Shown piece by piece: positions 25,821 through 62,054 of a DNA stretch of 64,000 nucleotides (within the stretch, counting starts at the first letter, position 1; the number at the start of each line of letters is the position of its first letter). The notes under the pieces are model-generated. The model did no database searches and was not told the DNA's origin. It worked only from the letters and a program-made list of their open reading frames with translations. The position numbers were made by a program, and so were the translations under genes. The DNA is taken from NCBI GenBank assembly GCA_963718875.1, contig OY970378.1, forward strand, positions 132,396 through 196,395, in the 5' to 3' direction. This DNA comes from Candidatus Parcubacteria bacterium (lineage in GTDB: Bacteria; Patescibacteriota; Saccharimonadia; UBA4664; JBIOIQ01).

Positions 25821-25841
25821 TTGGGTACGAAAGCAAAAAGG

Positions 25842-28903: not shown

Positions 28904-29103
28904 ACTCGCCGTAGGACTTTTTTGTTCTATACCAAAGTACAAAAAGTTTTTAAGGATTATAATTTATGGTGCCGACGCTTAAGAGATAGATTGATAGTCG
29001 CTCTTAATGCGTTTGGTGTTCCCGCCGGCGGGGAGGAGCGATTTCTCGCTCCTCCCCGCTTGGCGGCTTAGTTTTGTTAACCGTAAACTAAACGTGTGAA
29101 GAG

Positions 29104-31214: not shown

Positions 31215-31305
<91 letters not shown>

Positions 31306-32674: not shown

Positions 32675-32765
32675 CAAGTAAAGGGAGCCTCCCTTTTAGT
32701 GGTTATGTTAGCATTTCGAGCTCATTTCTTAAGTTAGGGAGCCTCCCTCGAATTTGTTATGCTCC
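32675..32765. repeat. paired palindromic motif element (2x GGGAGCCTCCC), second locus
   Basis: Same arrangement as 2845-2940. Marks the left boundary of the GC-rich cassette array. Confidence 0.55.
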
Positions 32766-32789
32766 GACCCAAGGCTTCAAACTCCACGT

Positions 32790-32873
32790 TGTCACCCTGA
32801 ACCGTCGGCTGACGGTTGTTTCAGGATCTCTTAATCTGGACAAGAGATCCCGGATCGTGGTCCGGGATGACAA
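32790..32873. repeat. inverted pair of family-1 REP/RPE-like elements
   Basis: Reverse copy GTCACCCTGAAC...TCAGGATCTCTT, then forward copy AGAGATCCCGGATCGTGGTCCGGGATGACAA. Confidence 0.6.
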
Positions 32874-32937
32874 GAAGAAGGTTGAAAACTTAGGTCGGGC
32901 CCCGCACCAGCCTTGGTAGACTTGGTGCGGGACGGGG

Positions 32938-33384
32938 TTAGGACGGGTCGGATTCGGGTGCCGGAGGGCGCTTGGCGAGCTCGATTTCGAGCTCGGCGAC
33001 ACATCTTTCGTGGTCTTTAACAACCTCCATGAGTAGCTCAGCTTTTTCCTGATAACGCTGGGCCTCGGCCGCGATGCGCATGTAAAGCGTTTCGATGGTG
33101 CAGTCTTTGGGGAACTGGTCGAACCCTGCGTCAAGGAGTGCGATGAAAGCATCGATAGCCTTTTTGGCTGCTTTGTACTCATGCTTGTAAAACCAACCGG
33201 GCCAGTCGGGATCGGCCTCGCAGTAGGGAACCATGAACTCCTGGAGCAGCTGAGCGTAGGGTCGAATGACGCTCCATGGCTCATTCCACGGATTGTAGAA
33301 CTGGGTGATCCTCTCCAGTGTCCACATTCCGTCTCTGATTCTTTTGAGGACGTCTCGCAGTGCCTGGGTGGGGTGAATGGTCAT
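32938..33384 (-). CDS. cassette-array paralog A1 (hypothetical, C-terminal coiled coil and Pro-rich tail)
   Basis: 148 aa, N-terminal MTIHPTQALRDVL. Shares N-terminal and C-terminal (ELEIELAKRPP...DPS) features with 33395-33811, 35444-35989 and 36119-36628. Confidence 0.6.
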   Translation of the reverse strand: MTIHPTQALRDVLKRIRDGMWTLERITQFYNPWNEPWSVIRPYAQLLQEFMVPYCEADPDWPGWFYKHEYKAAKKAIDAFIALLDAGFDQFPKDCTIETLYMRIAAEAQRYQEKAELLMEVVKDHERCVAELEIELAKRPPAPESDPS

Positions 33385-33394
33385 GGGATCTGTT

Positions 33395-33811
33395 TCAGTT
33401 GGAGTGCGAAGGGGGCGAGGAAGGACGCTTTTTGAGCTCGGTTTCGAGTCCTTTGATGCGGGCGTCCAGTTCTTTAACCTGTGACGCGAGGGACTCAGAC
33501 CAGTTTTTGTAACGGATCCTTTCGCCGGCGATTCTCATGTAGAGATCACCGATGGTAGTACCACTTGGGAGCCGATCGAATCCGGCATCTATTAACTCGA
33601 TGAAGGCGTCAAGTGCCTGTGTGAAAGTGGGCGAGTAAGGAAGTTCATGGTGCTCGCCAAGGAAAGCTTTGATGAGCTCCTGGTAGGGTGAAAACACGCT
33701 GTCGGTTGCCATGCCACCGCCTTGCATTACTGCGGCATATGCGCTACGAGAGTTTGCGTCTCTGGCTGCGACGAGCGCGTCGCGAAGTGCTTGGGTTGGG
33801 GTTAGCGTCAC
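33395..33811 (-). CDS. cassette-array paralog A2
   Basis: 138 aa, MTLTPTQALRDAL... Shares DAFIELIDAGFD...LYMRIAGE block with A1. GTG start with AAAGGAT RBS. Confidence 0.6.
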   Translation of the reverse strand: MTLTPTQALRDALVAARDANSRSAYAAVMQGGGMATDSVFSPYQELIKAFLGEHHELPYSPTFTQALDAFIELIDAGFDRLPSGTTIGDLYMRIAGERIRYKNWSESLASQVKELDARIKGLETELKKRPSSPPSHSN

Positions 33812-33978
33812 GGGTTATCTATCCTTTGGGTTGTGGATCGTGTACACGGGTTGCATCGTTGCTTCCCGACCTAAGGTTTCAAAGCTCTTTTTAAGACCTG
33901 ATCTTCGATAGTTGAAAGCTTGGGTCGGGGTTCCGCCGTGCGCTGGTTAGGGCGCAGGCAGCGGAACCTGTGGATGGG

Positions 33979-34383
33979 CTATACCGGGTGGATCTTGTGC
34001 ATACTGCACTTGAAGATGTCGATCATGGGGAACTCGGCCTGAGGGTGTTCCGCCTCGAGGTAAACTACGCCGGCCAGGTCGGAAGTCAGGTTGAGGCCGG
34101 TGGAGCTGGTAATGAAGTCACTTACCAAGTCGATGGCCATGCTGTCGTCCTGGTCCAGCTCGTACTTGCTGACGCCGAACTTGGCGGCGATCTTGCCGTG
34201 GTCGAGCTCGAACTGCTCGGTGTTGGTGTCGCGGTCGTAGTCGTTGCGAGAGCAGAGCCAGGCGCTGCGGACTCGGACGATGGCTTTGACTTGGACGCCT
34301 TGCTCTTCTCTGAGCTCGCGCTTGACGAGCGTGAGCTGCTTGGCACTGACCTTGCCGATCACCACTAGCGTGGTGGCTGCCAT
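33979..34383 (-). CDS. cassette-array gene B (hypothetical, 134 aa)
   Basis: Own conserved leader with AAAGGAAGA RBS. Flanked by the TTAGGTCGGG/CCCGACCTAAG inverted-repeat boundary elements. Confidence 0.5.
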   Translation of the reverse strand: MAATTLVVIGKVSAKQLTLVKRELREEQGVQVKAIVRVRSAWLCSRNDYDRDTNTEQFELDHGKIAAKFGVSKYELDQDDSMAIDLVSDFITSSTGLNLTSDLAGVVYLEAEHPQAEFPMIDIFKCSMHKIHPV

Positions 34384-34548
34384 GATGTTCTTCCTTTGAT
34401 CGTCGGTACACGGGTAAGCACTGTTGCTTCCCGACCCAAGACTTCAATCTTATTTACACGGGTGGAACCGATGTAGGATTTGAAAACTTAGGTCGGGGTT
34501 CCGCCGCTGTAGCCGGAGCTACAAACGGCGGAACCTGGGAATGGGTGG

Positions 34549-35226
34549 TTAGCTGGATACGCCTTCGGGTGCTGATCCCTCAACGGGTGCATCCTCGAAG
34601 GGATATGCCAAGACTCGAGCGACTTCACTCTCCAAGGTCTCGGTGCTGAAGCCCACCAGGGCACGGTCTAGGGCTTGGCTACGAAGCTTGACCTCAAGTG
34701 CCTTGAGGCGCTCCGGGATCCCGCTGCTTTGCCAGTCCCGGTAGAGGTGTTGAGCGCAGAGCATCTCCATATGGTAGTGGCTTGCAACTGCCGAGCGGAA
34801 GCCATCGGTGCCTACAGGGCTGTTGGGGTAGTTGCCGAAAATGGCGATGATGAGCTCACCGTCCTCGCCGAAGACGGCGAGAGAGAACTCGTCATCGATG
34901 TCGTAGCCAGCACCGTGACGGAATGGGAAGCCGAAGCTGTCACGACCAGGATCCGGCTGCTTGATCTCGTAGTGGAACACGATACCCATCTCGATGCGTA
35001 GCAGCTCGCCGCCCTTGTTTCGAAGGTGGCGGGTGACCACTTTGCCGCTGACAATGAAATCGAGCGTGTTGCCGAGCTTGACGAGCTCATAGGTGGTGCC
35101 ATTGATGTCGGCTGAGTAAATATCCCTCAACACTTCCTCAATGAGGTGGTGCTCAGGGCTGTGGTGGTGAATCGATCGGTAGCCAACTGCTTGGGGGTGA
35201 GCGTGGGCGGGTCGGGTGTAGGCCAT
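34549..35226 (-). CDS. cassette-array gene C (hypothetical, 225 aa)
   Basis: Conserved leader ...CCGAAAAAGGATGG-N7-ATG. Same boundary elements. Confidence 0.5.
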   Translation of the reverse strand: MAYTRPAHAHPQAVGYRSIHHHSPEHHLIEEVLRDIYSADINGTTYELVKLGNTLDFIVSGKVVTRHLRNKGGELLRIEMGIVFHYEIKQPDPGRDSFGFPFRHGAGYDIDDEFSLAVFGEDGELIIAIFGNYPNSPVGTDGFRSAVASHYHMEMLCAQHLYRDWQSSGIPERLKALEVKLRSQALDRALVGFSTETLESEVARVLAYPFEDAPVEGSAPEGVSS

Positions 35227-35349
35227 TGAAAACCATCCTTTTTCGGTTGTCGATCGGGTACACGGGTAAGCACTATTGCTTCCCGACCTAAGACTTCAAA
35301 ACTCTTTGTTGTCACCTTGTACTTGATTCAGGGTCTCTTAATCTGGACA

Positions 35350-35380
35350 AGAGATCCCGGATCGTGGTCCGGGATGACAA
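35350..35380 (+). repeat. family-1 REP/RPE-like element (AGAGATCCCGGATCGTGGTCCGGGATGACAA)
   Basis: Identical to 32843-32873. Preceded by a degenerate reverse copy. Confidence 0.6.
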
Positions 35381-35443
35381 TTTAGGGTTGAAAACTTAGG
35401 TCGGGCCCCGCATCAGCCTTGGAAGACTTGATGCGGGACGGGG

Positions 35444-35989
35444 TTAGGACGGGTTCGGCTTGGATACCGGAGGACGGGTGGCGAGTTCGGCTTCGAGCTC
35501 GGCGATGCGGGCGTTGAGGTCGTCGTTCTGCTGGCAAACCTTGCGGTGCTCGCGAGCGAGGTTGTCGAGTTGGCTGTACCGCTCTTGGAGTGAGATGACA
35601 AGGGAGTCGTGGTCTAGACGTACTGTCGCGAGCTTGGCCTCGAGCTTGGCGACGGTCTCCCTCGTGATGGCGAGCCAGTACTCTGCCTTGAAACGGTATC
35701 CTGCAGCCCACATCAGCCTGTTGTCGATGGGGTTGGTAGGGGAAAGCTCGTCGGCTCCTGAGTTTACCAACCAGATGATGCTGTTGATGGCCGCGATGTT
35801 GCGAGCTTGGGTTCCCGCGAAGTCTACCTGGGCAGCATCGATGAAGGTACGGAAGTGGCCACTGACTGTGCTGAAGATGCTGTGGTTACCCGGGTTGCCA
35901 ATTATCTGCTCAATGTTGGACTCTTGGGGGTCGGAGTCCCTGAGCGCCTTGAGGGCGTCGATGAGGGCCTGGGTAGGGTTGATTGCCAT
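35444..35989 (-). CDS. cassette-array paralog A3
   Basis: Start at internal Met (MAINPTQALIDALKALRD) with AAAAAGGACGG RBS. C-terminus ARIAELEAELATRPPVSKPNPS. Confidence 0.6.
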   Translation of the reverse strand: MAINPTQALIDALKALRDSDPQESNIEQIIGNPGNHSIFSTVSGHFRTFIDAAQVDFAGTQARNIAAINSIIWLVNSGADELSPTNPIDNRLMWAAGYRFKAEYWLAITRETVAKLEAKLATVRLDHDSLVISLQERYSQLDNLAREHRKVCQQNDDLNARIAELEAELATRPPVSKPNPS

Positions 35990-36118
35990 GGTGGCCGTCC
36001 TTTTTGGGTTGTCGGGTACACGGGTAAGCACTGTTGCTTCCCGACCTAGGGCTTCAAACGAGGTTGAAAACTTAGGTCGGGCCCCGCACCAGCTGGGTAG
36101 GCAAGGTGCGGGACGGGG

Positions 36119-36628
36119 TTAGGACGGGTCGGGTTCGGGTGAGTAAGGCTCCTGCAGAGCTGCGACTTTGGCTTCGAGTTCGGCGACGAGGAGCTTCATT
36201 TGATGACCCTCATGCCTGAGAACCTGGTTCTCGTTGCGCTCTTCCCTCAGGTGGTCTAGGTTCTCGCGGATGACCTGTCGGGCTTGGTAGAGCTCGCCGC
36301 CAACCTTCATAGCGAAGTCAGCAACCTGAGAGCCGTCAGGGAGTACCGTCAAGCCGGCCCAGATGAGCTCGAACAGGTGGTTGATGACAGCCTTGCACTG
36401 CGTGTACAGGATGTCCCTCCTGGTTTGCGAGTTCATGCCCTCGAGGTTATCCAGGATCCCACATGCCTTCCTGAACGGCAGGATGAGTTGAGCGACCTCG
36501 TAGAACATGTGGTAGGGGTCGGTGGTGGTAAGGAGCTGAACTGCTTCGGCGACGTCCAGGGTGCCGGTGTTGGCGCCAATGCGCATTTCTTCCAGCTTGG
36601 CCATCAGAGTTACGGTGGGGTTGAGCAT
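36119..36628 (-). CDS. cassette-array paralog A4 (promoter-proximal)
   Basis: 169 aa. C-terminus LVAELEAKVAALQEPYSPEPDPS. AAAGGACGAATACC-ATG leader. Confidence 0.6.
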   Translation of the reverse strand: MLNPTVTLMAKLEEMRIGANTGTLDVAEAVQLLTTTDPYHMFYEVAQLILPFRKACGILDNLEGMNSQTRRDILYTQCKAVINHLFELIWAGLTVLPDGSQVADFAMKVGGELYQARQVIRENLDHLREERNENQVLRHEGHQMKLLVAELEAKVAALQEPYSPEPDPS

Positions 36629-37064: not shown

Positions 37065-37844
37065 ATGACAGAAGAACAGCTTCAACAACTAGGATTATCA
37101 CCTACACAAGCTAAGGCGTACCTTTTACTAGTGCTGACGGGTAAGCTGACGCCGGCGGATTTGATGGCTAAGACGGGGGATAGCCGAACCAATGCTTACA
37201 TGGTGCTGGACAGATTAGTTGAGCTGGGGCTGGCGATTAAAGATGAGGTGGGCAAAAAGCTGATTTATCGCTCAAACAGCCCCGTTGGACTGGCCAAGAT
37301 TGCGGAGCGTCAAAGGGAGAAGGCCACCCAAACGGAAGGCAAGATTCGCGATGCCATGCCTGAGCTGGTTAAGTTTTACCATTCTCACCGAACTCAACCC
37401 GGAGTGCGGTTTTTACAAGGGAAAGAGGGGCTACAACAGGTTTATAAAGACCATCTTAAGACCGGTGGAGACGAGGTAATTTTTAGAACTAAGGCGGATA
37501 ACGAGTATTATGGTCAAGGGTTACTGACGTACATGGAGGAGCGGGCAGCAAAGGGAATTAAGACCGATATGATTTCACCCTGGCAGAGGGATATGGTTAA
37601 GTATGCTCCGGTGGAAAACGTGCGGTTAAAACGTGATGTGACTTTTGTACCGCCTGAGGCCTACGATGTGCCTGTGGAGATTGCGGTATATGGTACTAGG
37701 GTTGCGATTACCTCCTTTGGTGAGGAGGCGATTGCAACGATTATTGACAGCCCCCAGGTGGCGGATGCGGTAAGACAAGTATTTGCCATGGCTAAGGCAG
37801 GGGCGGATAAGCTTTGGGTTGAGGCCGGCGGCTTGCCCGAGTAA
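37065..37844 (+). CDS. TrmB-family transcriptional regulator
   Basis: N-terminal winged HTH (LGLSPTQAKAYLLLVLTGKLTPADLMAKTGDSRTNAYMVLDRLVELGL) plus C-terminal TrmB-like domain. Paralog at 53755. Confidence 0.7.
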   Translation: MTEEQLQQLGLSPTQAKAYLLLVLTGKLTPADLMAKTGDSRTNAYMVLDRLVELGLAIKDEVGKKLIYRSNSPVGLAKIAERQREKATQTEGKIRDAMPELVKFYHSHRTQPGVRFLQGKEGLQQVYKDHLKTGGDEVIFRTKADNEYYGQGLLTYMEERAAKGIKTDMISPWQRDMVKYAPVENVRLKRDVTFVPPEAYDVPVEIAVYGTRVAITSFGEEAIATIIDSPQVADAVRQVFAMAKAGADKLWVEAGGLPE

Positions 37845-44035: not shown

Positions 44036-44377
44036 TTATGGAGCTAAAGTTCGCTCCTGTGTCGGTTGGCCAGTTTGGCGGGTCGTTAGCGCATCGATGG
44101 CGAAGCTGATGAACGGCTTGGCCGCCGCATAGCCTTCGACATGGGCATCGATCACTTCCATTAGGTCTTGGAAGGTTGGAGCGGTCAATCTTCTGAGTAG
44201 GTTGAAAATGGCATTGATCGGATACAGAACGCTTTCCCCCGTACTGCTCATGTTCGAGATTGTTGCCCACAGTTTGCCGGCTTCTTGGGTTACCGTAGTG
44301 TCACTGGACGTGTCGGGATCCAAGTTGAGCCGTCCCAGGATGGCATGGACAACCGCAGTAGTGTCGGATGTGCTCAC
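44036..44377 (-). CDS. hypothetical protein (GC-rich, IS-adjacent)
   Basis: GTG start with AAGAGG RBS. 113 aa. Confidence 0.45.
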   Translation of the reverse strand: MSTSDTTAVVHAILGRLNLDPDTSSDTTVTQEAGKLWATISNMSSTGESVLYPINAIFNLLRRLTAPTFQDLMEVIDAHVEGYAAAKPFISFAIDALTTRQTGQPTQERTLAP

Positions 44378-44578
44378 CGTTACCTCTTTTCAGTCGAATG
44401 GGTTTTGCTATTATGCCTGAACTGGAGGTGGTTGGCAAACTCTCGGTTCGTCGAGGCTGCCTAACTGAGAGTTGGCGCAAAAAAAGATGTGCGTTTTAAT
44501 CGGAGGGCGTAAAGAAGAAAGCACCCCGGGCCGCTCTGGTGGGAGCGACGCCGGGGTGCGAGACGGGGAGGATGAGGG

Positions 44579-45121
44579 CTAGTCCCTCGGGTTGATGGTG
44601 AGGGTGCCGGTGAATGTCTGGGTGTTGTAGAGGACCCGGACGGGGCTTCCGTCCATGACGAGGTTGCCGGTCAAGATCCAGCTGTTGTTGATTCCCGACT
44701 CCCGATCAACGTGGTTAACGAGCACGGTGACGGTGCGGGACTGCTTCGTGGTGAAGACGATGTTTTGTCCACCGAAGAAGCGGTTCCCGAGATCGTCACG
44801 GATGGGGCTGCGTCCCGGGATGATGTCGAGCTGGCGGGTGGCAGCAGCATTGATGGTGAGCCTTCCATCCCTAGTGTGGGTGTGGTAGTAGCCCGAGAAC
44901 GGAACTTGGGCTCTGGCGGTCACCCCTGCGATGTTCCAGCAGAAGGGGTTTTTGGTGTGCGTGAGGGAGTTCACATACACATTGACTTTACGCCCGGATT
45001 CAGTGATGAAGGTGACCATCTTCCGTGCGTAGGTGCGCTGGAATAGCTCAAGGCCGTCGGGGTTGTCGGAGCCGTCTATCTTGATTTCGTGGCGGGTTGT
45101 TGTAGGTGCGGCAGCGGACAT
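44579..45121 (-). CDS. hypothetical beta-rich protein (GC-rich, IS-adjacent)
   Basis: AGGAGC RBS. 180 aa. Confidence 0.5.
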   Translation of the reverse strand: MSAAAPTTTRHEIKIDGSDNPDGLELFQRTYARKMVTFITESGRKVNVYVNSLTHTKNPFCWNIAGVTARAQVPFSGYYHTHTRDGRLTINAAATRQLDIIPGRSPIRDDLGNRFFGGQNIVFTTKQSRTVTVLVNHVDRESGINNSWILTGNLVMDGSPVRVLYNTQTFTGTLTINPRD

Positions 45122-49681: not shown

Positions 49682-50503
49682 TTAAGCGGAGCGTGAGGCC
49701 GATCTGGCCTGCTTGGTCCAGTACCCCGGGTGGTTCATGTCGTCGGCGGTGTCAAGCAGTCGATGGCCTGGGACTCCGCCTGCTACGACCGCCTGATGGA
49801 GGGCGGTGAATTTCTTGATCAGTGCTCCGAGCGAATCGGGATGCATTGGTTCCTCCCATCTGCGCTGATACTTTTCCAGCAGCCCTATGGCTTCATTCAG
49901 AGCTGATGTGCATGATGACCTGGACATGCGTCCATACTGGATATTGCTCAGGAGCAGTCGGATTCTGGTGTACCATGCAGGGAAGTTGTCTTTGTCAGCT
50001 CCGAACTCGTTGGACACGAAGCCATCTAGCTGGGTTCGCAGAACGGGCATGTGCAGCCGCAGGCGTTCCGGCAGATTGGTGCCATCGCCCACGTCCTCGG
50101 TCAGCCTGGCGGAATCCTTCATGGCCGAAAGAAGACTTAAGAGAAACGTGTTCGGATAGGTTCCGGAAATGAGGATCCTCCAGGCCTCTGCCAAATGGGC
50201 CTCGAGAGCCCTTGCGACGATCTGCCAGTCGGTTGTAAAAAGCGGACGACTGGGGGTAGGGCCTCGCTGGCCGAAGGTGTCTTGAACTTCTTGCAGAGAC
50301 CCCAGAATTCGGGACAATGGTCCATGAAGAGCCGTTTGTGAAGGGTCGTTACTTCCGAGGGGACGCAGGTCGATCACTTGTCTACGCAAGTCTGTTGCTC
50401 CGAAGAAGGCGAACTTCGTTACCCAAGCCAGCGGATCGCCTTCTACTTTGGGGATGGTCAGGAAGATGGAGAGCCGGTCTCCGTCTATCGTGGTCATGGA
50501 CAT
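49682..50503 (-). CDS. hypothetical protein (GC-rich insert between hairpin direct repeats)
   Basis: 273-aa ORF, GC about 60%. Confidence 0.45.
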   Translation of the reverse strand: MSMTTIDGDRLSIFLTIPKVEGDPLAWVTKFAFFGATDLRRQVIDLRPLGSNDPSQTALHGPLSRILGSLQEVQDTFGQRGPTPSRPLFTTDWQIVARALEAHLAEAWRILISGTYPNTFLLSLLSAMKDSARLTEDVGDGTNLPERLRLHMPVLRTQLDGFVSNEFGADKDNFPAWYTRIRLLLSNIQYGRMSRSSCTSALNEAIGLLEKYQRRWEEPMHPDSLGALIKKFTALHQAVVAGGVPGHRLLDTADDMNHPGYWTKQARSASRSA

Positions 50504-50671
50504 GTGCTCCTATCGAGGAGGGTCGGGAACCCGACCAGGTGCAGGCCGACTTGGCCATGGATAAAGTTTGATACTAAATCATGTATTTGTCAATAAAAGC
50601 CTACCTGTCGTATGTTTTTTGGGCCTTTCACTTCGCTCGGAGCGTTGAAAGGGGTCGAAAAAATCAAGATA

Positions 50672-50736
50672 AGAGATCCCGGATCCGGAGCGCCAAGCTA
50701 TGCAATGGTTCGGCTTGGCTTCCGGTCCGGGATGAC
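50672..50736 (+). repeat. family-1 REP/RPE-like element with nested hairpin
   Basis: AAGAGATCCCGGA-TCCGGAGCGCCAAGC...GCTTGGCTTCCGG-TCCGGGATGACG. Closest relative of the copies embedded in tsaD and polA. Confidence 0.65.
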
Positions 50737-50745
50737 GTTTTTTTA

Positions 50746-50790
50746 AAACAACGAGCCCCCGACCAGACGAGCGGAGGCTCGTTGTAGTCG
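50746..50790 (+). repeat. hairpin direct repeat, copy 2
   Basis: AACAACGAGCCCCCGACCAGACGAGCGGAGGCTCGTTG. Confidence 0.6.
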
Positions 50791-50801
50791 GGGGCGGGGC
50801 G

Positions 50802-51473
50802 TCAGTCCGTGAAGCGGAATGACGCCAAGAAGGCGTCGGCGAAGTGGGGCGTTGTGGTGATCAGGCCGCCTGCCCAAATGCTGTAGACAGCTCCATTGTG
50901 CCAGACGTCGATGAAGGGCCCGGAGCCTCCCAGGGGCGTATGGAAGGTGGAGAAAATTGCAGGCTTCCCCATGAAGGTTCCCTGGCGAACGTCCCTATAG
51001 TTCGAATCGAGCATGTCCTTCCGCACCATTGCCAAGACATCGTCGAAAGCTCTATCCGGGTAACGGACGATGATGACCTCGTAGATCTCGTGAGCAAACC
51101 TATTGCAGAGGGAATTGTCGCTGAAAATGTCCGGGCAGATTTTCCCATTGGTTTGGTCTACACTGATTGCGCTGATATAGATTCCGTCTTTGTCGCCGTC
51201 TTGAAGGATAAGTTTCCTTTGAACAGGATCGCCGTCAGTGGGGAAGTCGGCGCAAAACCCTTTGTCGCAGATTGTCAGGATGATTGGTTGAGTGAGTAGA
51301 CCTCGCACGATGGTACTCGAGGCGGACAACTCAGCAATCGGGATTCGGCGTACAGTTGAGGATGGTGCTTCGATAGTTGTGTCGGGCGAAACGGCGGTTG
51401 TGCCGTCGTCGGATGAACATGCATTGACTATGAAGGCCAGTGCGAGGGATAGAATGACGGTGCGGCGGCGCAT
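50802..51473 (-). CDS. lipoprotein (hypothetical)
   Basis: Signal plus lipobox FIVNAC. 223 aa. Confidence 0.55.
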   Translation of the reverse strand: MRRRTVILSLALAFIVNACSSDDGTTAVSPDTTIEAPSSTVRRIPIAELSASSTIVRGLLTQPIILTICDKGFCADFPTDGDPVQRKLILQDGDKDGIYISAISVDQTNGKICPDIFSDNSLCNRFAHEIYEVIIVRYPDRAFDDVLAMVRKDMLDSNYRDVRQGTFMGKPAIFSTFHTPLGGSGPFIDVWHNGAVYSIWAGGLITTTPHFADAFLASFRFTD

Positions 51474-52331: not shown

Positions 52332-53114
52332 ATGATAGTAGTTGGCCTCACCGGCGGAATGGGGCAGGGTAAAAGCACAGTTGGGCAGATGCTGCGCGAG
52401 CTTGCGAAAGTGGATTATAAGGCTGACCTAGAGTCATCGTATCCCATTACGACGGTGGCCAATCAGTGGCTATCGACGTGGCCGCAGTCGTTGGTGCTTG
52501 CTGCCAATGAGACGCAGATACAGCTGGCAAACCGGCTAATTGAAAGCCTACCACCCATTATCGAGGAAGTTACTGGTAAATCTACAACAGCCAAAGTTTT
52601 ACAAATTAATGAAGCTGATTCTGCGAATGTGACTTTGCATAAGCGTTTACTTGATTACATAGGTCAATGGCTAGAAGAATCCGAGGGTGAACGTCATGAC
52701 CGGCTACCGCTGCCGATTGTGCCACAAAATAAGGCTCTACATAGGGCGCTGTTTCAGTGGTTGGGTGGGATGGCGATTGAACTGATTTATCGCCCAATTT
52801 GGAGCGACTTGCTTGATAAACGGATAAAACAACTAGCTGAGAGGGATTATAAGTTGGTGACGGTTGGTGGAATCCGCTATGACCATGATGCGGACATGAT
52901 TCAGGCTAACAAGGGGGTTATTTTAAAAGTTATGCGGCCGCATTCTGCTCATAGTAGTGATGTGACGGAGACCTCCATGAGTGAAGTTGAGGCTGATATT
53001 GTGCTGCATAATGATGGGACGCTGGCGCAGTTAGAATGGGTTGTGCGGCAGCTATGGCAGGATTTGCAAGTGGGGAAACCACAGGCAGAGTATCGGGCTA
53101 GTCTTATTGCCTGA
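52332..53114 (+). CDS. P-loop kinase, dephospho-CoA kinase-like
   Basis: VGLTGGMGQGKSTV resembles the CoaE GLTGGIGSGKST motif. Confidence 0.55.
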   Translation: MIVVGLTGGMGQGKSTVGQMLRELAKVDYKADLESSYPITTVANQWLSTWPQSLVLAANETQIQLANRLIESLPPIIEEVTGKSTTAKVLQINEADSANVTLHKRLLDYIGQWLEESEGERHDRLPLPIVPQNKALHRALFQWLGGMAIELIYRPIWSDLLDKRIKQLAERDYKLVTVGGIRYDHDADMIQANKGVILKVMRPHSAHSSDVTETSMSEVEADIVLHNDGTLAQLEWVVRQLWQDLQVGKPQAEYRASLIA

Positions 53115-53149
53115 GCGGAGTCGAAGGCTCCTTTTATTAACATCTGGAT

Positions 53150-53177
53150 AGATCTCTCCACAGGGTCGAGATGACAG
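53150..53177 (+). repeat. REP-like K-subtype element
   Basis: AGATCTCTCCACAGGGTCGAGATGACAG, matches 1389-1417. Confidence 0.6.
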
Positions 53178-53754
53178 AGGGGAATAACTTCATTCAAAAA
53201 GAAAGCGGGCCAGCTCTGGGGAGGGGATTCCCAAGAGCTGGCCCGTGGGGGCCGGATATGTGGGGGGCTAGCCAGTGACGGTGGTGATGACACTGATGCC
53301 GAGCGTGAACCCTGCGCCGAGCGCACCATCCTCGATGAGGTCACGACGAGTCAGCGGCTTGGGTTCCCTCGTGGGGAAGATGACGTCGAAGATGACGACA
53401 ATCAGGGTGCAGAGCGTCCAGCGGAAGCCATGACGACGAAGAAACTGGGACATTGGAACTCACTTTCCCGACCGGTTGGTCGTGGATAGAGGCCATGTGA
53501 AGGCCGATTTGGGTGGGCTTGAGATGGCTGAGGCCGAAACCCGCCGTTGTGATGCTTTTGACCCCAGGAGGGAGTCTACTTGTGTCGAGGGTGCTTGCGT
53601 CTTTGAGACGTGGCACGTTCTCGAAACATGAATCGGATTTTAACATAGATTAATATAAATGTCAACTTTTTGTACGCATGATAGCCAGGGTGGTGAATCG
53701 TGTCATAAGACGAATTCTGTTGAAAAAAACTGACAACAATGCTATGTTGAAATT

Positions 53755-55056: not shown

Positions 55057-55401
55057 TGCATTATTCCCTGAGCCTGAATGACGGCAGTCAGGCTTGTCGA
55101 AAAAAAAGGGGGGGTTAATGGCCTTCGACTAGGCTCAGGCAGTAGCTAAGTTTACTTTTGCCGACATTAATTTTAGTTACTTTAACAGATACGAAACAAA
55201 GAATTTTAATAAAAACTGTAAAAAAGTATTGACATAAATATATTATGTATGCTAGGCTTGTGAAGTTGTGAAAATAACGTCAAATGTTATGGACACAATA
55301 GTACATTTACTTTTTGTTCTTGCTTACTATTGCATTAACTTTCCGTCAATTGAGCTAAACATTTAACTTAGTTGTCGGAAAGCTATGGGAGGGGGTGAGC
55401 A

Positions 55402-55560
55402 ATGGACGAGTTCGAATACATTCTCTTGCTTGCGCTGTTGATGGGCTATTCGCCCTTCGACATCTGCATGTTCTTCTTTGGGCTGGGCTGCGAGAGCGGC
55501 CACGCCTGTGCGAGGGAGCAGCAGGAGCGCGAGTGGGAGCAGGCCCGGATCGGCTACTAG
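55402..55560 (+). CDS. small membrane protein (52 aa), candidate
   Basis: GGAGGGGGTGAGCA-ATG RBS. Hydrophobic core plus Cys-containing tail. Immediately upstream of the tRNA-like element. Confidence 0.35.
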   Translation: MDEFEYILLLALLMGYSPFDICMFFFGLGCESGHACAREQQEREWEQARIGY

Positions 55561-55590
55561 TCGGTGGAGTGGTCGCCCTAAGCGACTAAG

Positions 55591-55665
55591 AGGGCTGATT
55601 GGTTTCGCTTGGAATGGTCGCATTTGCGAACTGACCAAGCCCGGGTTCGATTCCCGGCAGCTCTA
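55591..55665 (+). ncRNA. tRNA-like element resembling the tmRNA tRNA-like domain (Ala identity features), no tag ORF
   Basis: 7-bp acceptor stem AGGGCTG/CAGCTCT with a G3:U70 wobble and A73 discriminator. Canonical T-arm CCGGG-TTCGATT-CCCGG. No D-stem. 5' AGGGCUGAUU and 3' GGGUUCGAUUCCCGGCAGCUC mimic the tmRNA ends, but only a short hairpin sits between them. Confidence 0.45.
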
Positions 55666-56037
55666 CTTATGGCGAAAAACAGCAGGAAAACGTTACGAGT
55701 TGGCCGAGCCAGCTCATCCTCCCAGAGGTTCGTCTGGGGCGTAATCTTCGGCCCAGACGCCGAACGATACGTCGAGATCACGTCTGATCTGCTTTTTCCT
55801 CCTACGGAGGCAGAAGCACGATGGAGGCTTGGCCTCCCTGACGGCACTCCGGTGTTGGTCGGCTGCCCCTAAGGCAGATCTGCGGCGTTCGGCTACGCCA
55901 AGAACCTTGAAGGAGCATAGCTCCAAGTTGCGCTCTGGGCTAGAGCGAAAACAAAAGCTGGCCAATAGGTGTGGCCATCAAGCTCGGTTCAGAGCAACCT
56001 GTAACCCATTCAAGCGTTAATTTTTTCGCGCTTGAAT

Positions 56038-56124
56038 GGGAGCTGTCATCCACTAAGTAGTGGATCTGATGAGTCCTTCGATTCGTCCTGCGGGTGCGGG
56101 ACTCGCTCAGGACGAAACGGCTGC
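56038..56124 (+). ncRNA. hammerhead ribozyme, type III (copy 1)
   Basis: Stem III 5' strand GGAGCUGUC^A. Stem I hairpin TCCACT-AAGT-AGTGGA. Core CUGAUGA. Stem II GUCC...GGAC with an internal hairpin. Then GAAAC and stem III 3' strand GGCUGC. Predicted cleavage after C56047. Confidence 0.8.
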
Positions 56125-56897
56125 ATATTTAACATTTGGGAGTCGACTTTCGAAACTGGCGCAGATAGTCTGCTTCGGTTTCGGAAGTCGCAAACTTCCA
56201 GCCAAGTCCCATACCAGAAAAACTCAAAAGGTTCCCGGGCCAATCGGGCGCGCTCCTGAGCGTGGTACCCAAAATGGGTGAGAGTAAGAGATAAAAGTCC
56301 GCGCCATCCTTAATAGGGCTGGTTAAGAAAGTCGGACTGGGGTAACTCTACTGGTTTAAAGTGCGTCTCTCTTCCCCAGGAGGTGTTGGGTGGAACCAGC
56401 AACTTCTTTTATAAGAGAACGCAATGTCTAAAAAGGATGATGCCTCTTTGGCAGTACGCCAAAGCAAGGCTCTCCCAAGTTCGCCACCAGAAACCAGTCG
56501 GTATCGCGTACGTCCGCGACTCGCGAGTGCGGCCCGCACTGTCATCCCCAGTAGGGAAGACAATATCCTCTCCCATCGTGGGAAAGGAAGGGTACTGGCA
56601 GTAATGTGAAAAGACCAAACCCGGACGATAACCCGTCCACGCTAGTCCAGGGGAAAAGCTCCTGGGATGCGGTCGCGAGAGTGGCGGGGGATGAACAAAT
56701 TGGTCTGGGGGAATCACTGGTGAAATTGCGGGTTCGGTCCCCAGAGTTGTTGGCCTGAAAAACCAATAATCTTCACATCCGAACTCGTAGGCTCGACGGC
56801 ACAGGAGTAAGCCATGGCGCAGGTTAAACCGCGACAAAAACTCCTTCTCGAAGAGAGAGCTCCTTGATCGCTTTAAGTGACCGAGTGAGACCTCTTC

Positions 56898-56984
56898 GAG
56901 GCAGTTCCTCCGATGTGTGTCGGAGCTGATGAGTCCTTCGATTCTTCCCATCTAAGTGGGATCGCTCAGGACGAAAACTGCGGG
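56898..56984 (+). ncRNA. hammerhead ribozyme, type III (copy 2)
   Basis: GAGGCAGUUC^ then stem I CTCCGA-TGTGTG-TCGGAG, CUGAUGAGUCC...GGACGAAA, stem III ACUGC. Stem I and the stem II insert differ from copy 1 but remain hairpins (compensatory changes). About 50 nt upstream of the RBS of the 57035 lipoprotein gene. Confidence 0.8.
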
Positions 56985-57034
56985 TTGCAACGGTTGGTTT
57001 GCGCTCTTTGTCTTTGTGAGAAAGGAGGCAGGGA

Positions 57035-57403
57035 ATGCAAACCAAAAGCAATACCCACCGGAGCCGCACGGTCATCGCGGCAGTCACATTTGCTCTGTTC
57101 GTCGCAGTCTCGACGTCGGCTTGTGCCAGCTCGCTGTGGAGCGTAACGCCTCTCCCCAGGATGTACGCCTGCAGCTACACGAGCCAGCCGACGCAGGGCC
57201 AGACACTGTCGGCCGTTGCCGTCGCGACCTACAACCGTCAAGGACAAGGGGTTGACGACTGGAAGGCACTGATTCGTGAGCGCAGCCACTACATTGGGGC
57301 TGACACAGCTGTTCTGGATCCCAACCTGACTCTCGTCATCCCGCGCATCTGTGAGGAGGGGGAGCAGTCGGGTTCGGTCAGCAGCGACGTTCCGGCGTCT
57401 TAG
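57035..57403 (+). CDS. lipoprotein (hypothetical, weak LysM-like C-terminus)
   Basis: AAAGGAGG RBS. Signal plus lipobox STSAC. 122 aa. Confidence 0.55.
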   Translation: MQTKSNTHRSRTVIAAVTFALFVAVSTSACASSLWSVTPLPRMYACSYTSQPTQGQTLSAVAVATYNRQGQGVDDWKALIRERSHYIGADTAVLDPNLTLVIPRICEEGEQSGSVSSDVPAS

Positions 57404-61168: not shown

Positions 61169-61549
61169 ATGAGACAAATCTCAGCTAATCTCAGCACCGT
61201 CCTTCGAACGACGGCTGAGAACTTGATACGGCGAGGAACTCAAGCTGGTGCAGACGGTCGACTGTGGGCGGCCATCGGTGCGGCCCGTGTTGTGGCTGAT
61301 ACCAACCCCTTGCGGGCTACGGCTGTAGCACGTGAGCTGAAGGCGCTGGGGTGCGATATTGATCCGCGAGGTTTTGCAAGCCAGTTGTTACGATCAAGCC
61401 GCCTCATAACTCCAGCAGAACTTGCTCTCCCGAGCTTGTGGACTCCTCTGGCTCAGGCAATCTTGGAAATGCTAGAGCGACCAGACGTCAGCAAGGAATA
61501 CGGGCTGTGTGATCTTTGGGCAGGTACCTCGTCTGCGGCAAACGAATAA
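61169..61549 (+). CDS. hypothetical protein (GC-rich)
   Basis: AAGGGAGA RBS. 126 aa. Followed by hairpin GGGGCTGACGAC...GTCGGCCCC. Confidence 0.5.
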   Translation: MRQISANLSTVLRTTAENLIRRGTQAGADGRLWAAIGAARVVADTNPLRATAVARELKALGCDIDPRGFASQLLRSSRLITPAELALPSLWTPLAQAILEMLERPDVSKEYGLCDLWAGTSSAANE

Positions 61550-61582
61550 GCCCAGGGCGTATGATGCGCCTTGCGGTGCGGT

Positions 61583-61623
61583 GGGGCTGACGACTTTGAT
61601 CGTCGGCCCCATCCTCCTTTATG
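61583..61623 (+). terminator. hairpin terminator candidate (GGGGCTGACGAC-TTTGAT-CGTCGGCCCC)
   Basis: 10-bp stem. The downstream tail is only moderately T-rich. Confidence 0.4.
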
Positions 61624-61749
61624 AATTGCTAGAGGTTTAACCTCTAGCGTCACAAAATTGGTTATAAATGGTGAGGCGCCCCGGTTGCAGCAGGTAAGCT
61701 GCGAACCGGGGCGCCAGAGGCGCGGTTGAGAGATGTGGTTGATCAGGTG

Positions 61750-61956
61750 CTAGCGGTTGAGGGCCCAGTGGAGGGTCAGTGCGATGGTGGCGCCGAGGCA
61801 GGCGCAGGCTCCGCTCAGGATGATCTCGAACGTGTCGTCATCGTTGAGCTGGCGGGGGTTGCCACTGGCATCGGTGGCGCACATGTACGTGACCGCACCC
61901 GTGACCAGGCCAGCGGGGATGAGGACGGGGGCGACCCGCCGGAAAATCGTACGCAT
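61750..61956 (-). CDS. small membrane protein (68 aa), candidate
   Basis: Internal Met start with GAAGGGA RBS. The reverse complement upstream contains TTGCAA-17-TATTAT. GC-rich. Confidence 0.4.
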   Translation of the reverse strand: MRTIFRRVAPVLIPAGLVTGAVTYMCATDASGNPRQLNDDDTFEIILSGACACLGATIALTLHWALNR

Positions 61957-62054
61957 CGGATGATCCCTTCGTAGTAGTATGAGACGATTTGTATAATAAC
62001 ATACTTTTGTTTGTTTTGCAATAGAAGAACACATATTCAGGTATAATAAATCGT

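What the first reader, a model, noticed from the sequence alone, without database searches (positions are those of the whole stretch)
56038..56984. Two paralogous type-III hammerhead ribozymes 860 nt apart with compensatory stem changes
Both copies contain the textbook catalytic core CUGAUGAGUCC...GGACGAAAC, a closed 6-bp stem I hairpin immediately 5' of CUGAUGA, a closed stem II and an open stem III with a GUC or UUC cleavage triplet. That is type-III topology. Stem I (TCCACT/AGTGGA versus CTCCGA/TCGGAG) and the hairpin inserted in stem II (GTCCTGCGGGTGCGGGAC versus TCCCATCTAAGTGGGA) differ in sequence but keep their pairing. That points to selection on structure. Copy 2 sits in the 5' UTR about 50 nt upstream of a lipoprotein gene. 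Copy 1 precedes about 770 nt of GC-rich, hairpin-dense sequence with no convincing ORF.
Basis: partly seen in the sequence, partly recalled or inferred. Interest (0 to 1): 0.85.

Follow-up and report, generated by a model that had tools for sequence, protein, structure and literature searches.

The report
Twin hammerhead ribozymes bracketing a structured RNA
Two genuine-looking self-cutting hammerhead RNA motifs in a tiny-genome (Saccharimonadia) bacterium bracket a conserved 770-base folded non-coding RNA, so they most likely cut that RNA out of a longer transcript; this gives a concrete, testable job for bacterial hammerheads, whose roles are mostly unknown.

Summary
Two complete type-III hammerhead motifs lie on the + strand: HH1 at 56041-56122 (cut after C56047) and HH2 at 56901-56981 (cut after C56907), 860 nt apart. 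A structural descriptor finds both; it found none in 300 simulated windows.

Both have orthologues in the closest available relative, L014 (PolA 79% identical). All score below Rfam's hammerhead threshold, so they would go unannotated.

- **The interior is a structured RNA, not a gene.** It shows no codon periodicity and has frameshifting indels. Its 180-aa antisense ORF has no homologue. Pairing is conserved with compensatory changes, more strongly on the + strand.
- **The hammerheads belong to a conserved ~1.75-kb locus.** It runs: promoter-like site, 52-aa ORF, a tmRNA-like tRNA-like domain lacking the mRNA part, structured RNA, hairpin, HH1, 770-nt RNA, hairpin, HH2.
- **The lipoprotein gene is not a conserved partner.** It is absent from L014.
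- **The stem-II "insert" is a dispersed motif.** It is absent from the L014 orthologues. Its flanks match CCTTCGAYTNNRCTCAGG, which stands alone at least seven times in the window and caps hammerheads in two Microgenomates genomes.

Most likely role: the ribozymes release hairpin-capped RNA pieces without terminating transcription. Cleavage itself is untested.

The parts
55229..55258 (+). Promoter-like site: -35 TTGACA (55229-55234), an 18-nt spacer ending in TGC, then -10 TAGGCT (55253-55258).
   Evidence: Read from the sequence. This block is among the best conserved against L014 (41 of 50 columns identical). The consensus scanner did not list it, so the promoter role is inferred.
55334..55386 (+). 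Long 5'-UTR hairpin directly upstream of the Shine-Dalgarno site of the small ORF.
   Evidence: Predicted in the two-genome consensus fold of the 5' UTR: -26.9 kcal/mol against -8.3 +/- 2.6 for column shuffles. It also produces incidental hits to hairpin (miRNA) models.
55402..55560 (+). Conserved small ORF of 52 aa (MDEFEYILLLALLMGYSPFDICMFFFGLGCESGHACAREQQEREWEQARIGY). It has a hydrophobic N-terminal half and GGAGG 8-9 nt upstream of the ATG.
   Evidence: 81% identical to P0122 (JGI sample 3300071358) and 52% to the L014 version. This segment shows no conserved RNA structure (-19.4 against -19.9 +/- 3.7), in contrast to its neighbours. No Pfam family.
55591..55668 (+). tmRNA-like tRNA-like domain without an mRNA-like domain. 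It has an acceptor stem with G3-U70 and discriminator A, a D-like GAUUGGUUUCG, stem P2, a T-arm CCGGG-UUCGAUU-CCCGG, and no encoded CCA.
   Evidence: RF00023 scores 44.8 bits (threshold 47), E = 2.4e-16, with 22 nt where 314 model positions belong. The L014 orthologue scores 36.5 bits, with compensatory changes at acceptor pairs 1-72 and 5-68. ARAGORN reports no tmRNA.
55669..56005 (+). Conserved structured segment between the tRNA-like domain and HH1.
   Evidence: Consensus fold of 55561-56007 with L014: -90.4 kcal/mol (+ strand), -77.1 (- strand), -31.9 +/- 5.7 for shuffles; 20 compensatory pairs against 11.4 +/- 2.5. About 100 nt (roughly 55890-55990) are absent from L014.
56006..56039 (+). 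Stable 11-bp hairpin (CCAUUCAAGCG / CGCUUGAAUGG) abutting stem III of HH1.
   Evidence: Read from the sequence. L014 has a different 8-bp GAAA-capped hairpin (CCGCUCCG-GAAA-CGGAGCGG) at the same place. The position and structure are conserved; the sequence is not.
56041..56122 (+). Hammerhead 1, type III. Predicted cleavage between C56047 and A56048.
   Evidence: (RF00008, 30.1 bits). The orthologue at L014 ~5061-5121 has a minimal stem II.
56075..56111 (+). Stem-II module of HH1: CC-UUCGAUUC-[GUCCUGC-GGGU-GCGGGAC]-UCGCUCA-GG.
   Evidence: Absent from the L014 orthologue. Its flanks match the dispersed motif.
56123..56900 (+). Conserved ~770-nt structured non-coding RNA. It ends in a long irregular hairpin just 5' of HH2.
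   Evidence: About 70% identical to L014. Consensus fold -195.1 (+), -148.1 (-), -102.9 +/- 6.5 for shuffles; 35 compensatory pairs against 17.9 +/- 3.6. For the window-only minimum-energy structure, 30 of 41 doubly substituted pairs stay paired, against 7-14 in slid-partner controls. No codon periodicity; 15 indels, mostly not multiples of 3. No Rfam family.
56901..56981 (+). Hammerhead 2, type III. Predicted cleavage between C56907 and C56908.
   Evidence: (the unconstrained minimum-energy fold is the hammerhead). The orthologue at L014 5880-5933 scores 34.5 bits against RF00008, with stem II GUCC-AAAA-GGAC.
56935..56970 (+). Stem-II module of HH2: CC-UUCGAUUCU-[UCCCAU-CUAA-GUGGGA]-UCGCUCA-GG.
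   Evidence: Absent from the L014 orthologue.
56048..56907 (+). Predicted 860-nt product of double cleavage (5'-OH at A56048, 2',3'-cyclic phosphate at C56907).
   Evidence: Inferred from the cleavage sites. It folds with z = -6.3. The window 56001-56300 has the most extreme folding z-score of the whole 64 kb (-8.0).
57035..57403 (+). Lineage-specific ORF (122 aa, signal-peptide or lipoprotein-like) downstream of HH2. A neighbour, not a conserved part of the locus.
   Evidence: No Pfam hit. No counterpart in L014, where homology resumes at window 57587.

Best explanation
The two motifs are real, selected type-III hammerhead ribozymes in the chromosome of a Saccharimonadia (TM7 / Patescibacteria) bacterium. 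They belong to a conserved ~1.75-kb, largely non-coding transcription unit on the + strand. Its order is: promoter-like site, small-protein ORF, tmRNA-like tRNA-like domain, structured RNA, hairpin, HH1, 770-nt structured RNA ending in a hairpin, HH2.

During or after transcription each ribozyme cuts itself. This releases an ~860-nt structured RNA (56048-56907) with a 5'-OH and a 2',3'-cyclic phosphate.

Each hammerhead sits directly 3' of a stable hairpin. Each cut therefore leaves the upstream piece with a hairpin-capped 3' end, much like a terminator hairpin, while RNA polymerase carries on. The ribozymes act as end-makers that do not need termination. They separate functional RNA modules, and in this genome they also free the downstream lipoprotein-like mRNA from a long structured leader.

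The stem-II cap of both window ribozymes is a copy of a short conserved module that also stands alone around the genome. It replaces the plain 4-5-nt loop II found in the relative. It probably supplies a tertiary or protein contact, but it could be a tolerated insertion.

**Shown:** the motif anatomy, the orthology, the conserved structure and strand of the interior, the absence of coding signal, and the recurrence of the module.
**Inferred:** cleavage in vivo, the extent of the transcript, stabilisation by the hairpins, and what the 770-nt RNA does.
For: - **Motifs.** Complete cores and three helices in both copies. None in 300 simulated windows.
- **Orthology.** Both hammerheads have orthologues in L014 with pair-preserving changes.
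- **Locus conservation.** Window 55150-56936 is 68-79% identical to L014, comparable to the 74-76% of the flanking TrmB-like and PolA genes.
- **Interior structure.** Consensus fold -195.1 kcal/mol on +, -148.1 on -, -102.9 +/- 6.5 for shuffles; 35 compensatory pairs against 17.9 +/- 3.6. In the window-only fold, 30 of 41 double substitutions keep pairing.
- **Internal control.** The small-ORF segment shows no such structural signal.
- **No coding signal in the interior**.
- **Hairpins.** A hairpin lies immediately 5' of both hammerheads in both genomes, with different sequences. The same hairpin-then-hammerhead layout occurs twice in Shapirobacteria locus L002.
- **HH2's partner.** In L014 no + strand gene follows HH2, so its conserved partner is the RNA, not the lipoprotein gene.
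- **Precedent.** Multiple hammerheads processing long bacterial transcripts have been demonstrated (PMC3088659).
Against: - There are no expression or cleavage data.
- Structural conservation rests on only two genomes. A third, in JGI sample 3300071358, could not be retrieved.
- All Rfam hammerhead scores are below the curated threshold.
- HH1's free minimum-energy fold is a competing structure 1.6 kcal/mol below the active one.
- The promoter is a by-eye call that the scanner did not list.
- No loop I-loop II contact could be identified.
- The large stem-II insertion might slow or inactivate the window's ribozymes.
- The function of the 770-nt RNA is unknown.
Confidence: 0.7

Rival explanations
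1. Circular-RNA cassette, like a retrozyme or viroid. The twin type-III hammerheads excise an 860-nt unit that an RtcB-type ligase or the ribozyme itself circularises. The circle is the functional or mobile form.
For: - The size (860 nt), the non-coding structured interior and the type-III hammerheads resemble plant retrozyme circular RNAs of 600-1000 nt (PMC4918200, PMC5680766).
- Cleavage gives ligatable ends.
- The consensus fold closes most of the interior with a helix (columns 15-18 with 732-735), bringing the ends near each other.
- In L002 the two hammerheads share the same 5' stem-III strand, so a circle there would rebuild a hammerhead.
Against: - In the window the two stem IIIs differ (AGCUGU/ACGGCU against GCAGUU/AACUGC), so the ligated junction cannot rebuild a hammerhead.
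- The direct repeats are only 27 and 15 nt, with no LTR-like repeats.
- There is no other copy in the 64 kb, and no match among phages or plasmids.
It is not seen elsewhere.
- No reverse transcriptase lies nearby.
- The end-to-end pairing seen in the window's fold is not conserved in L014 (read).
- Circular products were looked for and not found in earlier bacterial cases (PMC3088659).
Confidence: 0.12
2. HH2 is mainly a 5'-UTR device for the downstream lipoprotein-like gene: an insulator or regulator that trims the leader. HH1 is an unrelated paralogue.
For: - HH2 ends about 52 nt upstream of the ATG at 57035, which has a good GGAGG.
- A hairpin (56994-57013 with 57026-57045) overlaps the start region.
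- In Daviesbacteria locus L001 a hammerhead of the same variant sits about 10 nt before an ORF.
Against: - The lipoprotein-like ORF and about 600 nt around it have no counterpart in L014, yet HH2 is conserved there. In L014 the next genes are on the opposite strand.
- HH1 and HH2 are conserved together with the RNA between them.
Confidence: 0.1
3. In this genome the hammerheads are compromised relics. A small dispersed repeat (CCTTCGAY...RCTCAGG) has inserted into loop II of both, and the motifs are no longer efficient ribozymes.
For: - The L014 orthologues have plain loops.
- The same motif occurs at least seven more times in the window, in both orientations and as inverted pairs.
- Its copies are not positionally conserved between the window and L014.
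- Lengthening stems I or II by one or two pairs lowered activity in a pseudoknot-dependent hammerhead (PMC3088659).
Against: - The module sits in exactly the same register (GUCC-UUCGA...CGCUCA-GGAC) in four hammerheads from three genomes of two CPR classes. Both genome-scan hits carry CGCUCA although the search pattern did not ask for it.
- The inserted hairpins differ in sequence but all pair.
- The cores and stems I and III are intact.
- Stem II tolerates extensions in many natural hammerheads (general knowledge).
Confidence: 0.08

Closest known systems
Hammerhead ribozyme, type III (Rfam RF00008)
   Same: All conserved core nucleotides (CUGAUGA, GAAA), the G10.1-C11.1 and A15.1-U16.1 pairs, an NUH cleavage triplet, closed stems I and II, and an open stem III.
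   Different: Scores of 24-34.5 bits against a gathering threshold of 48.5 (HH2 not listed), so not annotated by Rfam. Stem II carries a 30-50-nt module with conserved flanks in four of the seven hammerheads examined. The host is a CPR bacterium, for which the paper library holds no hammerhead report.
Multiple hammerheads flanking genes in prophages (Perreault et al. 2011, PMC3088659)
   Same: Several hammerheads in one orientation within 1-2 kb. The proposed role is to cut a long transcript into unit-length pieces. L002 (Shapirobacteria) fits this pattern, with two hammerheads flanking a 229-aa membrane-protein gene.
   Different: Here the flanked unit is a conserved structured non-coding RNA, not a gene. 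The context is chromosomal housekeeping genes (DnaG-RpoD-kinases...PolA-Fpg-HolA), not a prophage. Each hammerhead is preceded by a conserved hairpin.
Retrozymes and viroid-like circular RNAs with type-III hammerheads (PMC4918200, PMC5680766)
   Same: Type-III hammerheads bracket a 600-1000-nt non-coding, highly structured RNA encoded in DNA.
   Different: No LTR-like repeats. The two hammerheads are not interchangeable. Single syntenic copy, and no sign of mobility or of a circle.
tmRNA (Rfam RF00023) and tRNA-like 3'-end processing elements such as mascRNA
   Same: The element at 55591-55668 has the tmRNA acceptor stem with G3-U70, the D-like loop, P2 and the T-arm. As with MALAT1-mascRNA, a tRNA-like fold inside a long transcript could be an RNase P / RNase Z cutting site (general knowledge; the weak RF01684 hit is not evidence).
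   Different: It lacks the whole mRNA-like domain and the pseudoknots (22 nt in place of 314 model positions). It has no CCA, scores below the threshold, and is embedded in a longer transcript.

Membership tests
Hammerhead ribozyme type III | Conserved catalytic core: C3 U4 G5 A6 N7 G8 A9 and G12 A13 A14 | tested here: met
   CUGAUGA at 56066-56072 and 56926-56932; GAAA at 56114-56117 and 56973-56976.
Hammerhead ribozyme type III | A15.1-U16.1 pair, G10.1-C11.1 pair, and a cleavage-site nucleotide 17 that is not G (NUH rule) | tested here: met
   GUC|A in HH1 and UUC|C in HH2. Stem II opens with G...C in both. The L014 orthologues use GUU and UUC.
Hammerhead ribozyme type III | Three helices around the core, with stems I and II closed by loops and stem III open | tested here: met
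   Folding with the core held open gives the junction for all 7 hammerheads examined, and for 5 of 7 it is the free minimum-energy fold. HH1's free fold is a competitor 1.6 kcal/mol lower.
Hammerhead ribozyme type III | Score at or above Rfam's curated gathering threshold for RF00008 (48.5 bits) | tested here: not met
   HH1 30.1 bits; HH2 not listed at E <= 10. L014 orthologues 24.2 and 34.5. L001 27.0 and L002b 32.8. The loss comes from insertion penalties and loops, not from a missing helix.
Hammerhead ribozyme type III | Evolutionary conservation with pair-preserving substitutions | tested here: met
   Both orthologues are present in L014 with wobble-type changes in stems I and III. The paralogues differ in all three stems yet stay paired. 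Only two genomes were available.
Hammerhead ribozyme type III | Tertiary contact between stems I and II that gives fast cleavage at cellular Mg2+ | tested here: inconclusive
   No loop I-loop II pseudoknot could be found by eye in any copy. A conserved 1x3 internal loop (U / CUC), 5 bp from the core, is a candidate contact.
Hammerhead ribozyme type III | Site-specific self-cleavage giving 2',3'-cyclic phosphate and 5'-OH ends | not testable with these tools
   Needs in vitro transcription or end-specific RNA-seq.
Retrozyme / viroid-like circular RNA | Identical hammerhead-bearing direct repeats, so that the ligated monomer rebuilds a ribozyme | tested here: not met
   Repeats of only 27 nt (93%) and 15 nt. 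The stem III strands are not cross-compatible.
Retrozyme / viroid-like circular RNA | Multiple dispersed copies or other signs of mobility | tested here: not met
   No second copy in the window. Syntenic single copy in L014. No match among phages or plasmids. The rest of the 1.19-Mb genome could not be read.
Prophage multi-hammerhead gene cassette (Perreault 2011) | Hammerheads flank protein-coding genes inside a prophage | tested here: not met
   The interior is non-coding. The neighbours are a TrmB-like gene, a PadR-like gene, PolA, Fpg and HolA.
tmRNA (for the neighbouring element 55591-55668) | tRNA-like domain: acceptor stem with G3-U70, D-like loop, T-arm | tested here: met
   RF00023 alignment, E = 2.4e-16. 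The orthologue is in L014.
tmRNA (for the neighbouring element 55591-55668) | mRNA-like domain with a tag reading frame and pseudoknots; score at or above 47 bits | tested here: not met
   22 nt replace 314 model positions; 44.8 bits. ARAGORN finds no tmRNA.

The most novel reading that the evidence does not exclude
The twin ribozymes are the maturation machinery of a previously undescribed large structured RNA (~770 nt; ~860 nt with the ribozyme scaffold) confined to a small Saccharimonadia clade. It is made from a composite precursor that also carries a small membrane-protein ORF and a tmRNA-derived tRNA-like domain with no message, which may be chargeable with alanine.

The stem-II cap would be a dispersed, sequence-specific RNA module (CCU-U-CG...CG-CUC-AGG) that recruits a common factor to the ribozymes and to about one site per 7 kb of the genome. 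Hammerhead cleavage would then be a regulated step rather than a constitutive one.
Probability: 0.2. Interest if true: 0.85.

Novelty: new variant of a known kind. Interest (0 to 1): 0.6.

Why it matters
Thousands of bacterial hammerheads are known. Outside rolling-circle replicons and retroelements, their biological roles are largely unexplained (PMC6765202).

This locus offers an unusually clean test case. It has two conserved ribozymes whose only conserved partner is a large structured non-coding RNA. Each ribozyme is paired with an upstream hairpin, which suggests a defined job: making stable RNA ends without terminating transcription.

It also shows three further things:
- CPR bacteria carry hammerheads that the curated Rfam model misses.
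- Loop II can be replaced by a conserved module shared with free-standing genomic hairpins.
- A tmRNA-like tRNA-like domain can exist on its own inside a longer transcript.

Each point can be tested directly with in vitro cleavage assays and end-specific RNA-seq.

Tried and rejected
**Searches that found nothing useful**
- Rfam at gathering threshold: tRNAs only.
- Metagenome scan for CTGATGAGTCC-N15-45-CGCTCAGGACGAAA: no hits.
- Second metagenome scan with the small-ORF alignment: one locus, L018, with no similarity to the region and no hammerhead, so a false positive.
- Viral scans for the generic hammerhead pattern, for both halves of the module, and for two conserved interior blocks. These gave unrelated hammerhead-like hits or chance matches with no extended similarity.
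- BLAST of the locus against phage and plasmid collections: no match.
- Pfam on the small ORF and the lipoprotein-like ORF: nothing.

**Attempts to get more homologues**
- The small ORF has one homologue, but its contig's DNA is not retrievable.
- The PolA relatives L015, L016 and L017 lack the locus.

**Readings rejected**
- Protein coding by the 180-aa minus-strand ORF (56409-56951). It has no homologue among 5.8 billion proteins. Substitutions fall 45/57/53 across the three codon positions. Indels are frameshifting. Its 42% identity to an L014 ORF is what 70% DNA identity gives by itself.
- Coding by the 61-aa + strand ORF. An 8-nt indel against L014 breaks the frame.
- The motif as the C-terminus of small ORFs. 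The trailing TAA/TGA/TAG suggested it, but the upstream open frames are only 1-2 codons in several copies.
- A hybrid hammerhead or end-pairing that would favour circularisation. Pairing of 56120-56124 with 56901-56905 occurs in the window's fold but is out of register and absent from L014.

**Abandoned**
- A custom covariance model built from the non-window hammerheads. MAFFT could not put stems I and III in register.
- The organism name could not be recovered. Assignment to class Saccharimonadia rests on the named PolA hits.
Full report
**1. The observation**

- **HH1.** 5' AGCUGU-C|A (stem III 5' strand, then the cleavage site after C56047). Stem I is AUCCACU-AAGU-AGUGGAU. Then CUGAUGA. Stem II is GUCCU...AGGAC with a 31-nt insertion. 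Then GAAA and the 3' strand ACGGCU.
- **HH2.** GCAGUU-C|C (cut after C56907). Stem I is CUCCGAU-GUGU-GUCGGAG. The core and the stem-II base are the same as in HH1. The sequence after stem II is GAAA-ACUGC.
- Spacing is 860 nt.
- No other hammerhead core with a closed stem II exists in the window.
- A full structural descriptor hits only these two sites, and nothing in 300 simulated windows.
- HH2's unconstrained minimum-energy fold is the hammerhead. HH1 needs the core held open: -35.8 against a -37.4 kcal/mol competitor.

Rfam does not annotate either copy. There is nothing at the gathering threshold. In E-value mode HH1 gets 30.1 bits against RF00008 (threshold 48.5) with all three stems aligned, and HH2 is not listed.

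**2. Organism and neighbourhood**

The flanking genes are ordinary chromosomal genes. Upstream lie two kinases (AAA_18 and DNMK families) and a TrmB-like regulator. Downstream lie a PadR-like gene, PolA, Fpg and HolA.

The named PolA relatives are Saccharimonadia / Patescibacteria metagenome-assembled genomes. The identical protein sits on a 1.19-Mb contig.

The interval between DNMK and PolA varies among relatives. L016 has nothing there, and L015 and L017 carry other small genes.

The closest relative, L014 (PolA 79%), has the same ORF-poor region. Window 55150-56936 aligns with L014 4240-5915 at 68-79% identity. That is about the level of the neighbouring TrmB-like and PolA genes (74-76%).

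A third genome, in JGI sample 3300071358, has the same gene order and the small ORF. Its DNA could not be fetched.

There are no matches among phages or plasmids.

**3. Both hammerheads are conserved, but with a different stem II**

L014 carries orthologues of both hammerheads.

| | Cleavage triplet | Stem II | RF00008 score |
|---|---|---|---|
| L014 HH1 | GUU | GUUC-CAAAA-GGAC | 24.2 bits |
| L014 HH2 | UUC | GUCC-AAAA-GGAC | 34.5 bits |

- Changes between the orthologues in stems I and III mostly preserve pairing (U-A to U-G, U-G to U-A, G-C to G-U).
- The paralogues HH1 and HH2 differ in every stem yet stay paired.

So the motifs are under selection for the hammerhead fold. The ~30-nt insertion seen in both window copies is lineage-specific.

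**4. What lies between and around them**

*The interior is not coding.*
- Substitutions against L014 show no 3-base periodicity.
- The 15 indels are mostly not multiples of three.
- The 180-aa minus-strand ORF that gene callers report has no homologue among 5.8 billion proteins and no Pfam hit.

*The interior is a conserved structured RNA on the hammerhead strand.*

| Alignment tested | RNAalifold energy (kcal/mol) | Compensatory pairs |
|---|---|---|
| Interior, + strand | -195.1 | 35 |
| Interior, reverse complement | -148.1 | 29 |
| Interior, column shuffles | -102.9 +/- 6.5 | 17.9 +/- 3.6 |

A second test used a structure predicted from the window sequence alone. There, 30 of 41 pairs substituted on both sides in L014 remain paired. 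Slid-partner controls give 7-14.

*The same test separates the other segments.*

| Segment | Consensus energy | Shuffles |
|---|---|---|
| 5' UTR | -26.9 | -8.3 +/- 2.6 |
| 55561-56007 | -90.4 | -31.9 +/- 5.7 |
| 52-aa ORF (55402-55560) | -19.4 | -19.9 +/- 3.7 |

The first two are structured. The ORF is not, which fits its being a real small gene. It is 81% and 52% identical in the two relatives.

*Other conserved features.*
- A conserved promoter-like block, TTGACA-18 nt-TAGGCT preceded by TG, lies at 55229-55258. This is an inference, since the scanner did not list it.
- Each hammerhead is immediately preceded by a stable hairpin in both genomes. Upstream of HH1 the two hairpins have unrelated sequences: 11 bp in the window, and 8 bp with a GAAA loop in L014.
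- Upstream of HH2 there is a long hairpin with several compensatory changes.
- Window 56001-56300 has the most extreme folding z-score of the whole 64 kb (-8.0).

**5. The lipoprotein link**

HH2 does sit about 52 nt before the ATG at 57035. That ORF and about 600 nt around it are missing from L014. There HH2 is followed by opposite-strand toxin-antitoxin genes.

The conserved partner of HH2 is therefore the RNA upstream of it, not the gene downstream.

**6. Most likely mechanism**

A + strand precursor of about 1.75 kb or more is cut at 56047|56048 and 56907|56908. This yields three pieces:
1. The small-ORF mRNA, the tRNA-like domain and a structured tail, ending in a hairpin.
2. An 860-nt structured RNA that starts with the HH1 scaffold and ends in a hairpin.
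3. Whatever lies downstream, which here is the lipoprotein-like mRNA.

The hairpin-then-hammerhead design would give each upstream product a protected 3' end with a 2',3'-cyclic phosphate, without stopping RNA polymerase. The same layout occurs twice in Shapirobacteria locus L002. There each of two type-III hammerheads, 1060 nt apart, follows a gene and a GGGAGCCC hairpin.

Processing of long transcripts by several hammerheads has been shown for prophage operons (PMC3088659).

Cleavage, the extent of the transcript and the stabilising effect are all inferred. I put about 0.9 on the motifs being selected hammerheads. I put about 0.7 on the processing model as a whole.

**7. Rival readings**

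- **Circular RNA (retrozyme-like).** The size and the non-coding interior fit. However, the two stem IIIs are not interchangeable, and there are no long repeats, no extra copies and no reverse transcriptase. The end-pairing seen in the window is not conserved. Estimated at 0.12.
- **HH2 as a lipoprotein 5'-UTR device.** Contradicted by L014. Estimated at 0.1.
- **Ribozymes compromised by a repeat insertion.** See section 8. Estimated at 0.08.
- **Chance or protein coding.** Rejected.

**8. The stem-II insertion is a copy of a dispersed module**

Both window hammerheads read GUCC-UUCGAUUC-[hairpin]-UCGCUCA-GGAC. The flanks are identical and the hairpins are unrelated.

The single genome-collection scan asked only for CTGATGAGTCCTTCGA...GGACGAAA. 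It returned two Microgenomates genomes, a Daviesbacteria (L001) and a Shapirobacteria (L002). Both hits are type-III hammerheads, and both carry CGCUCA before GGAC although the pattern did not require it.

The same flanks, without the hairpin, form an 18-nt motif, CCTTCGAYTNNRCTCAGG.
- It stands alone at 9416, 23315, 23313(-), 36888, 37031, 53127(-) and 55122.
- A fixed 18-nt pattern search gives seven matches at up to 3 mismatches, against 0.64 +/- 0.93 in shuffles. That search lists 29502(-) but not the 17-nt copy at 23313(-).
- A long form with an inserted hairpin lies on the minus strand at 55063-55101.
- Two loci are inverted pairs.
- The base just outside CC...GG covaries: G-C in five copies, C-G in four, U-A in the hammerheads. 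This points to a hairpin.
- Copies also occur in L014 and L017, but not at conserved positions.

Two readings remain open. The module may be a functional RNA element, such as a tertiary or protein contact placed 5 bp from the core where loop II normally sits. Or it may be a small repeat that lands in hairpin loops and is tolerated. Kinetics with and without it would decide.

**9. Comparison with what is known, and novelty**

By anatomy these are members of the type-III hammerhead class. The one curated criterion they fail is the Rfam bit-score threshold.

Three things are new relative to described cases:
- The host: the paper library holds no report of hammerheads in Saccharibacteria, Patescibacteria or the CPR.
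- The cargo: a conserved large structured RNA rather than genes or a replicon.
- The module-capped stem II.

I rate this a new variant of a known kind, with interest 0.6. The evidence for the interior RNA rests on two genomes. Its function is unknown.

Noticed in passing
window 55591-55668 (+); L014 4668-4748: A 78-nt tmRNA-like tRNA-like domain 30 nt after the stop codon of the small ORF. It has an acceptor stem with G3-U70 and discriminator A (the alanine identity elements), a tmRNA-type D-like loop, P2 and a T-arm. Only 22 nt stand where the mRNA-like domain and pseudoknots belong, and no CCA is encoded. RF00023 gives 44.8 bits (threshold 47), E = 2.4e-16. It is conserved in L014 with compensatory changes. 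It could be an RNase P / RNase Z processing signal or a mimic that binds SmpB or AlaRS.
   Followed up: partly
window 9416, 23295-23332, 36888, 37031, 53110-53127(-), 55063-55139; L014 10435; L017 2585-2601(-): A dispersed 17-18-nt motif, CCTTCGAYTNNRCTCAGG, usually followed by (C/G)A(A/G)TAA, TGA or TAG. It occurs in both orientations and sometimes as inverted pairs, with a covarying closing base pair. It is the same sequence as the flanks of the hammerhead stem-II insertion. Two copies precede a second TrmB-like gene (37065-37844). One copy follows the DNMK gene in both the window and L017.
   Followed up: partly
window 55402-55560 (+): A conserved 52-aa ORF with a hydrophobic N-terminal half, three conserved Cys and one conserved His, and a charged C-terminal tail. 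It is preceded by a ~22-bp hairpin abutting its Shine-Dalgarno site. The layout resembles type I toxin mRNAs. Only one homologue cluster was found among 5.8 billion proteins (the L014 copy was found only in the DNA), and no Pfam family.
   Followed up: partly
window 23052-26791, 29104-30373, 32757-36628, 44036-45121, 49682-51473, 61169-62054: GC-rich islands (0.54-0.60, against 0.43-0.48 for recognisable genes). Their ten largest ORFs have no Pfam hit. Several ORF-poor gaps in or beside them fold far better than shuffles (z about -4 to -7 at 25001-25800, 26501-26800, 29001-29300, 30001-30300, 44501-44800, 50501-50800, 53001-53300 and 61501-61800; only 15 shuffles each). This genome may hold several more structured non-coding RNAs.
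   Followed up: partly
L002 3960-5200 (Candidatus Shapirobacteria): Two type-III hammerheads 1060 nt apart. One is minimal (GCUC-GUAA-GAGC) and one is module-capped. Each follows a gene and a GGGAGCCC-UUUAUU-GGGCUCCC hairpin within a duplicated ~50-nt block. They flank a 229-aa membrane-protein gene. The two share the same 5' stem-III strand, so a circularised product would rebuild the first hammerhead. The second is followed by an intrinsic terminator.
   Followed up: partly
L001 5955-6046 (-) (Candidatus Daviesbacteria): A module-capped type-III hammerhead about 10 nt upstream of a 485-aa ORF. It lies at the border of a GC-rich (0.56-0.64) segment of at least 2 kb, in a locus that is otherwise mostly ~0.4 GC.
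   Followed up: no
window 270-1538 and 31215-31304: Four tRNA-Ser genes with anticodons CGA, GCU, UGA and GGA, three of them clustered within 1.3 kb. GC skew is positive across the whole window.
   Followed up: no
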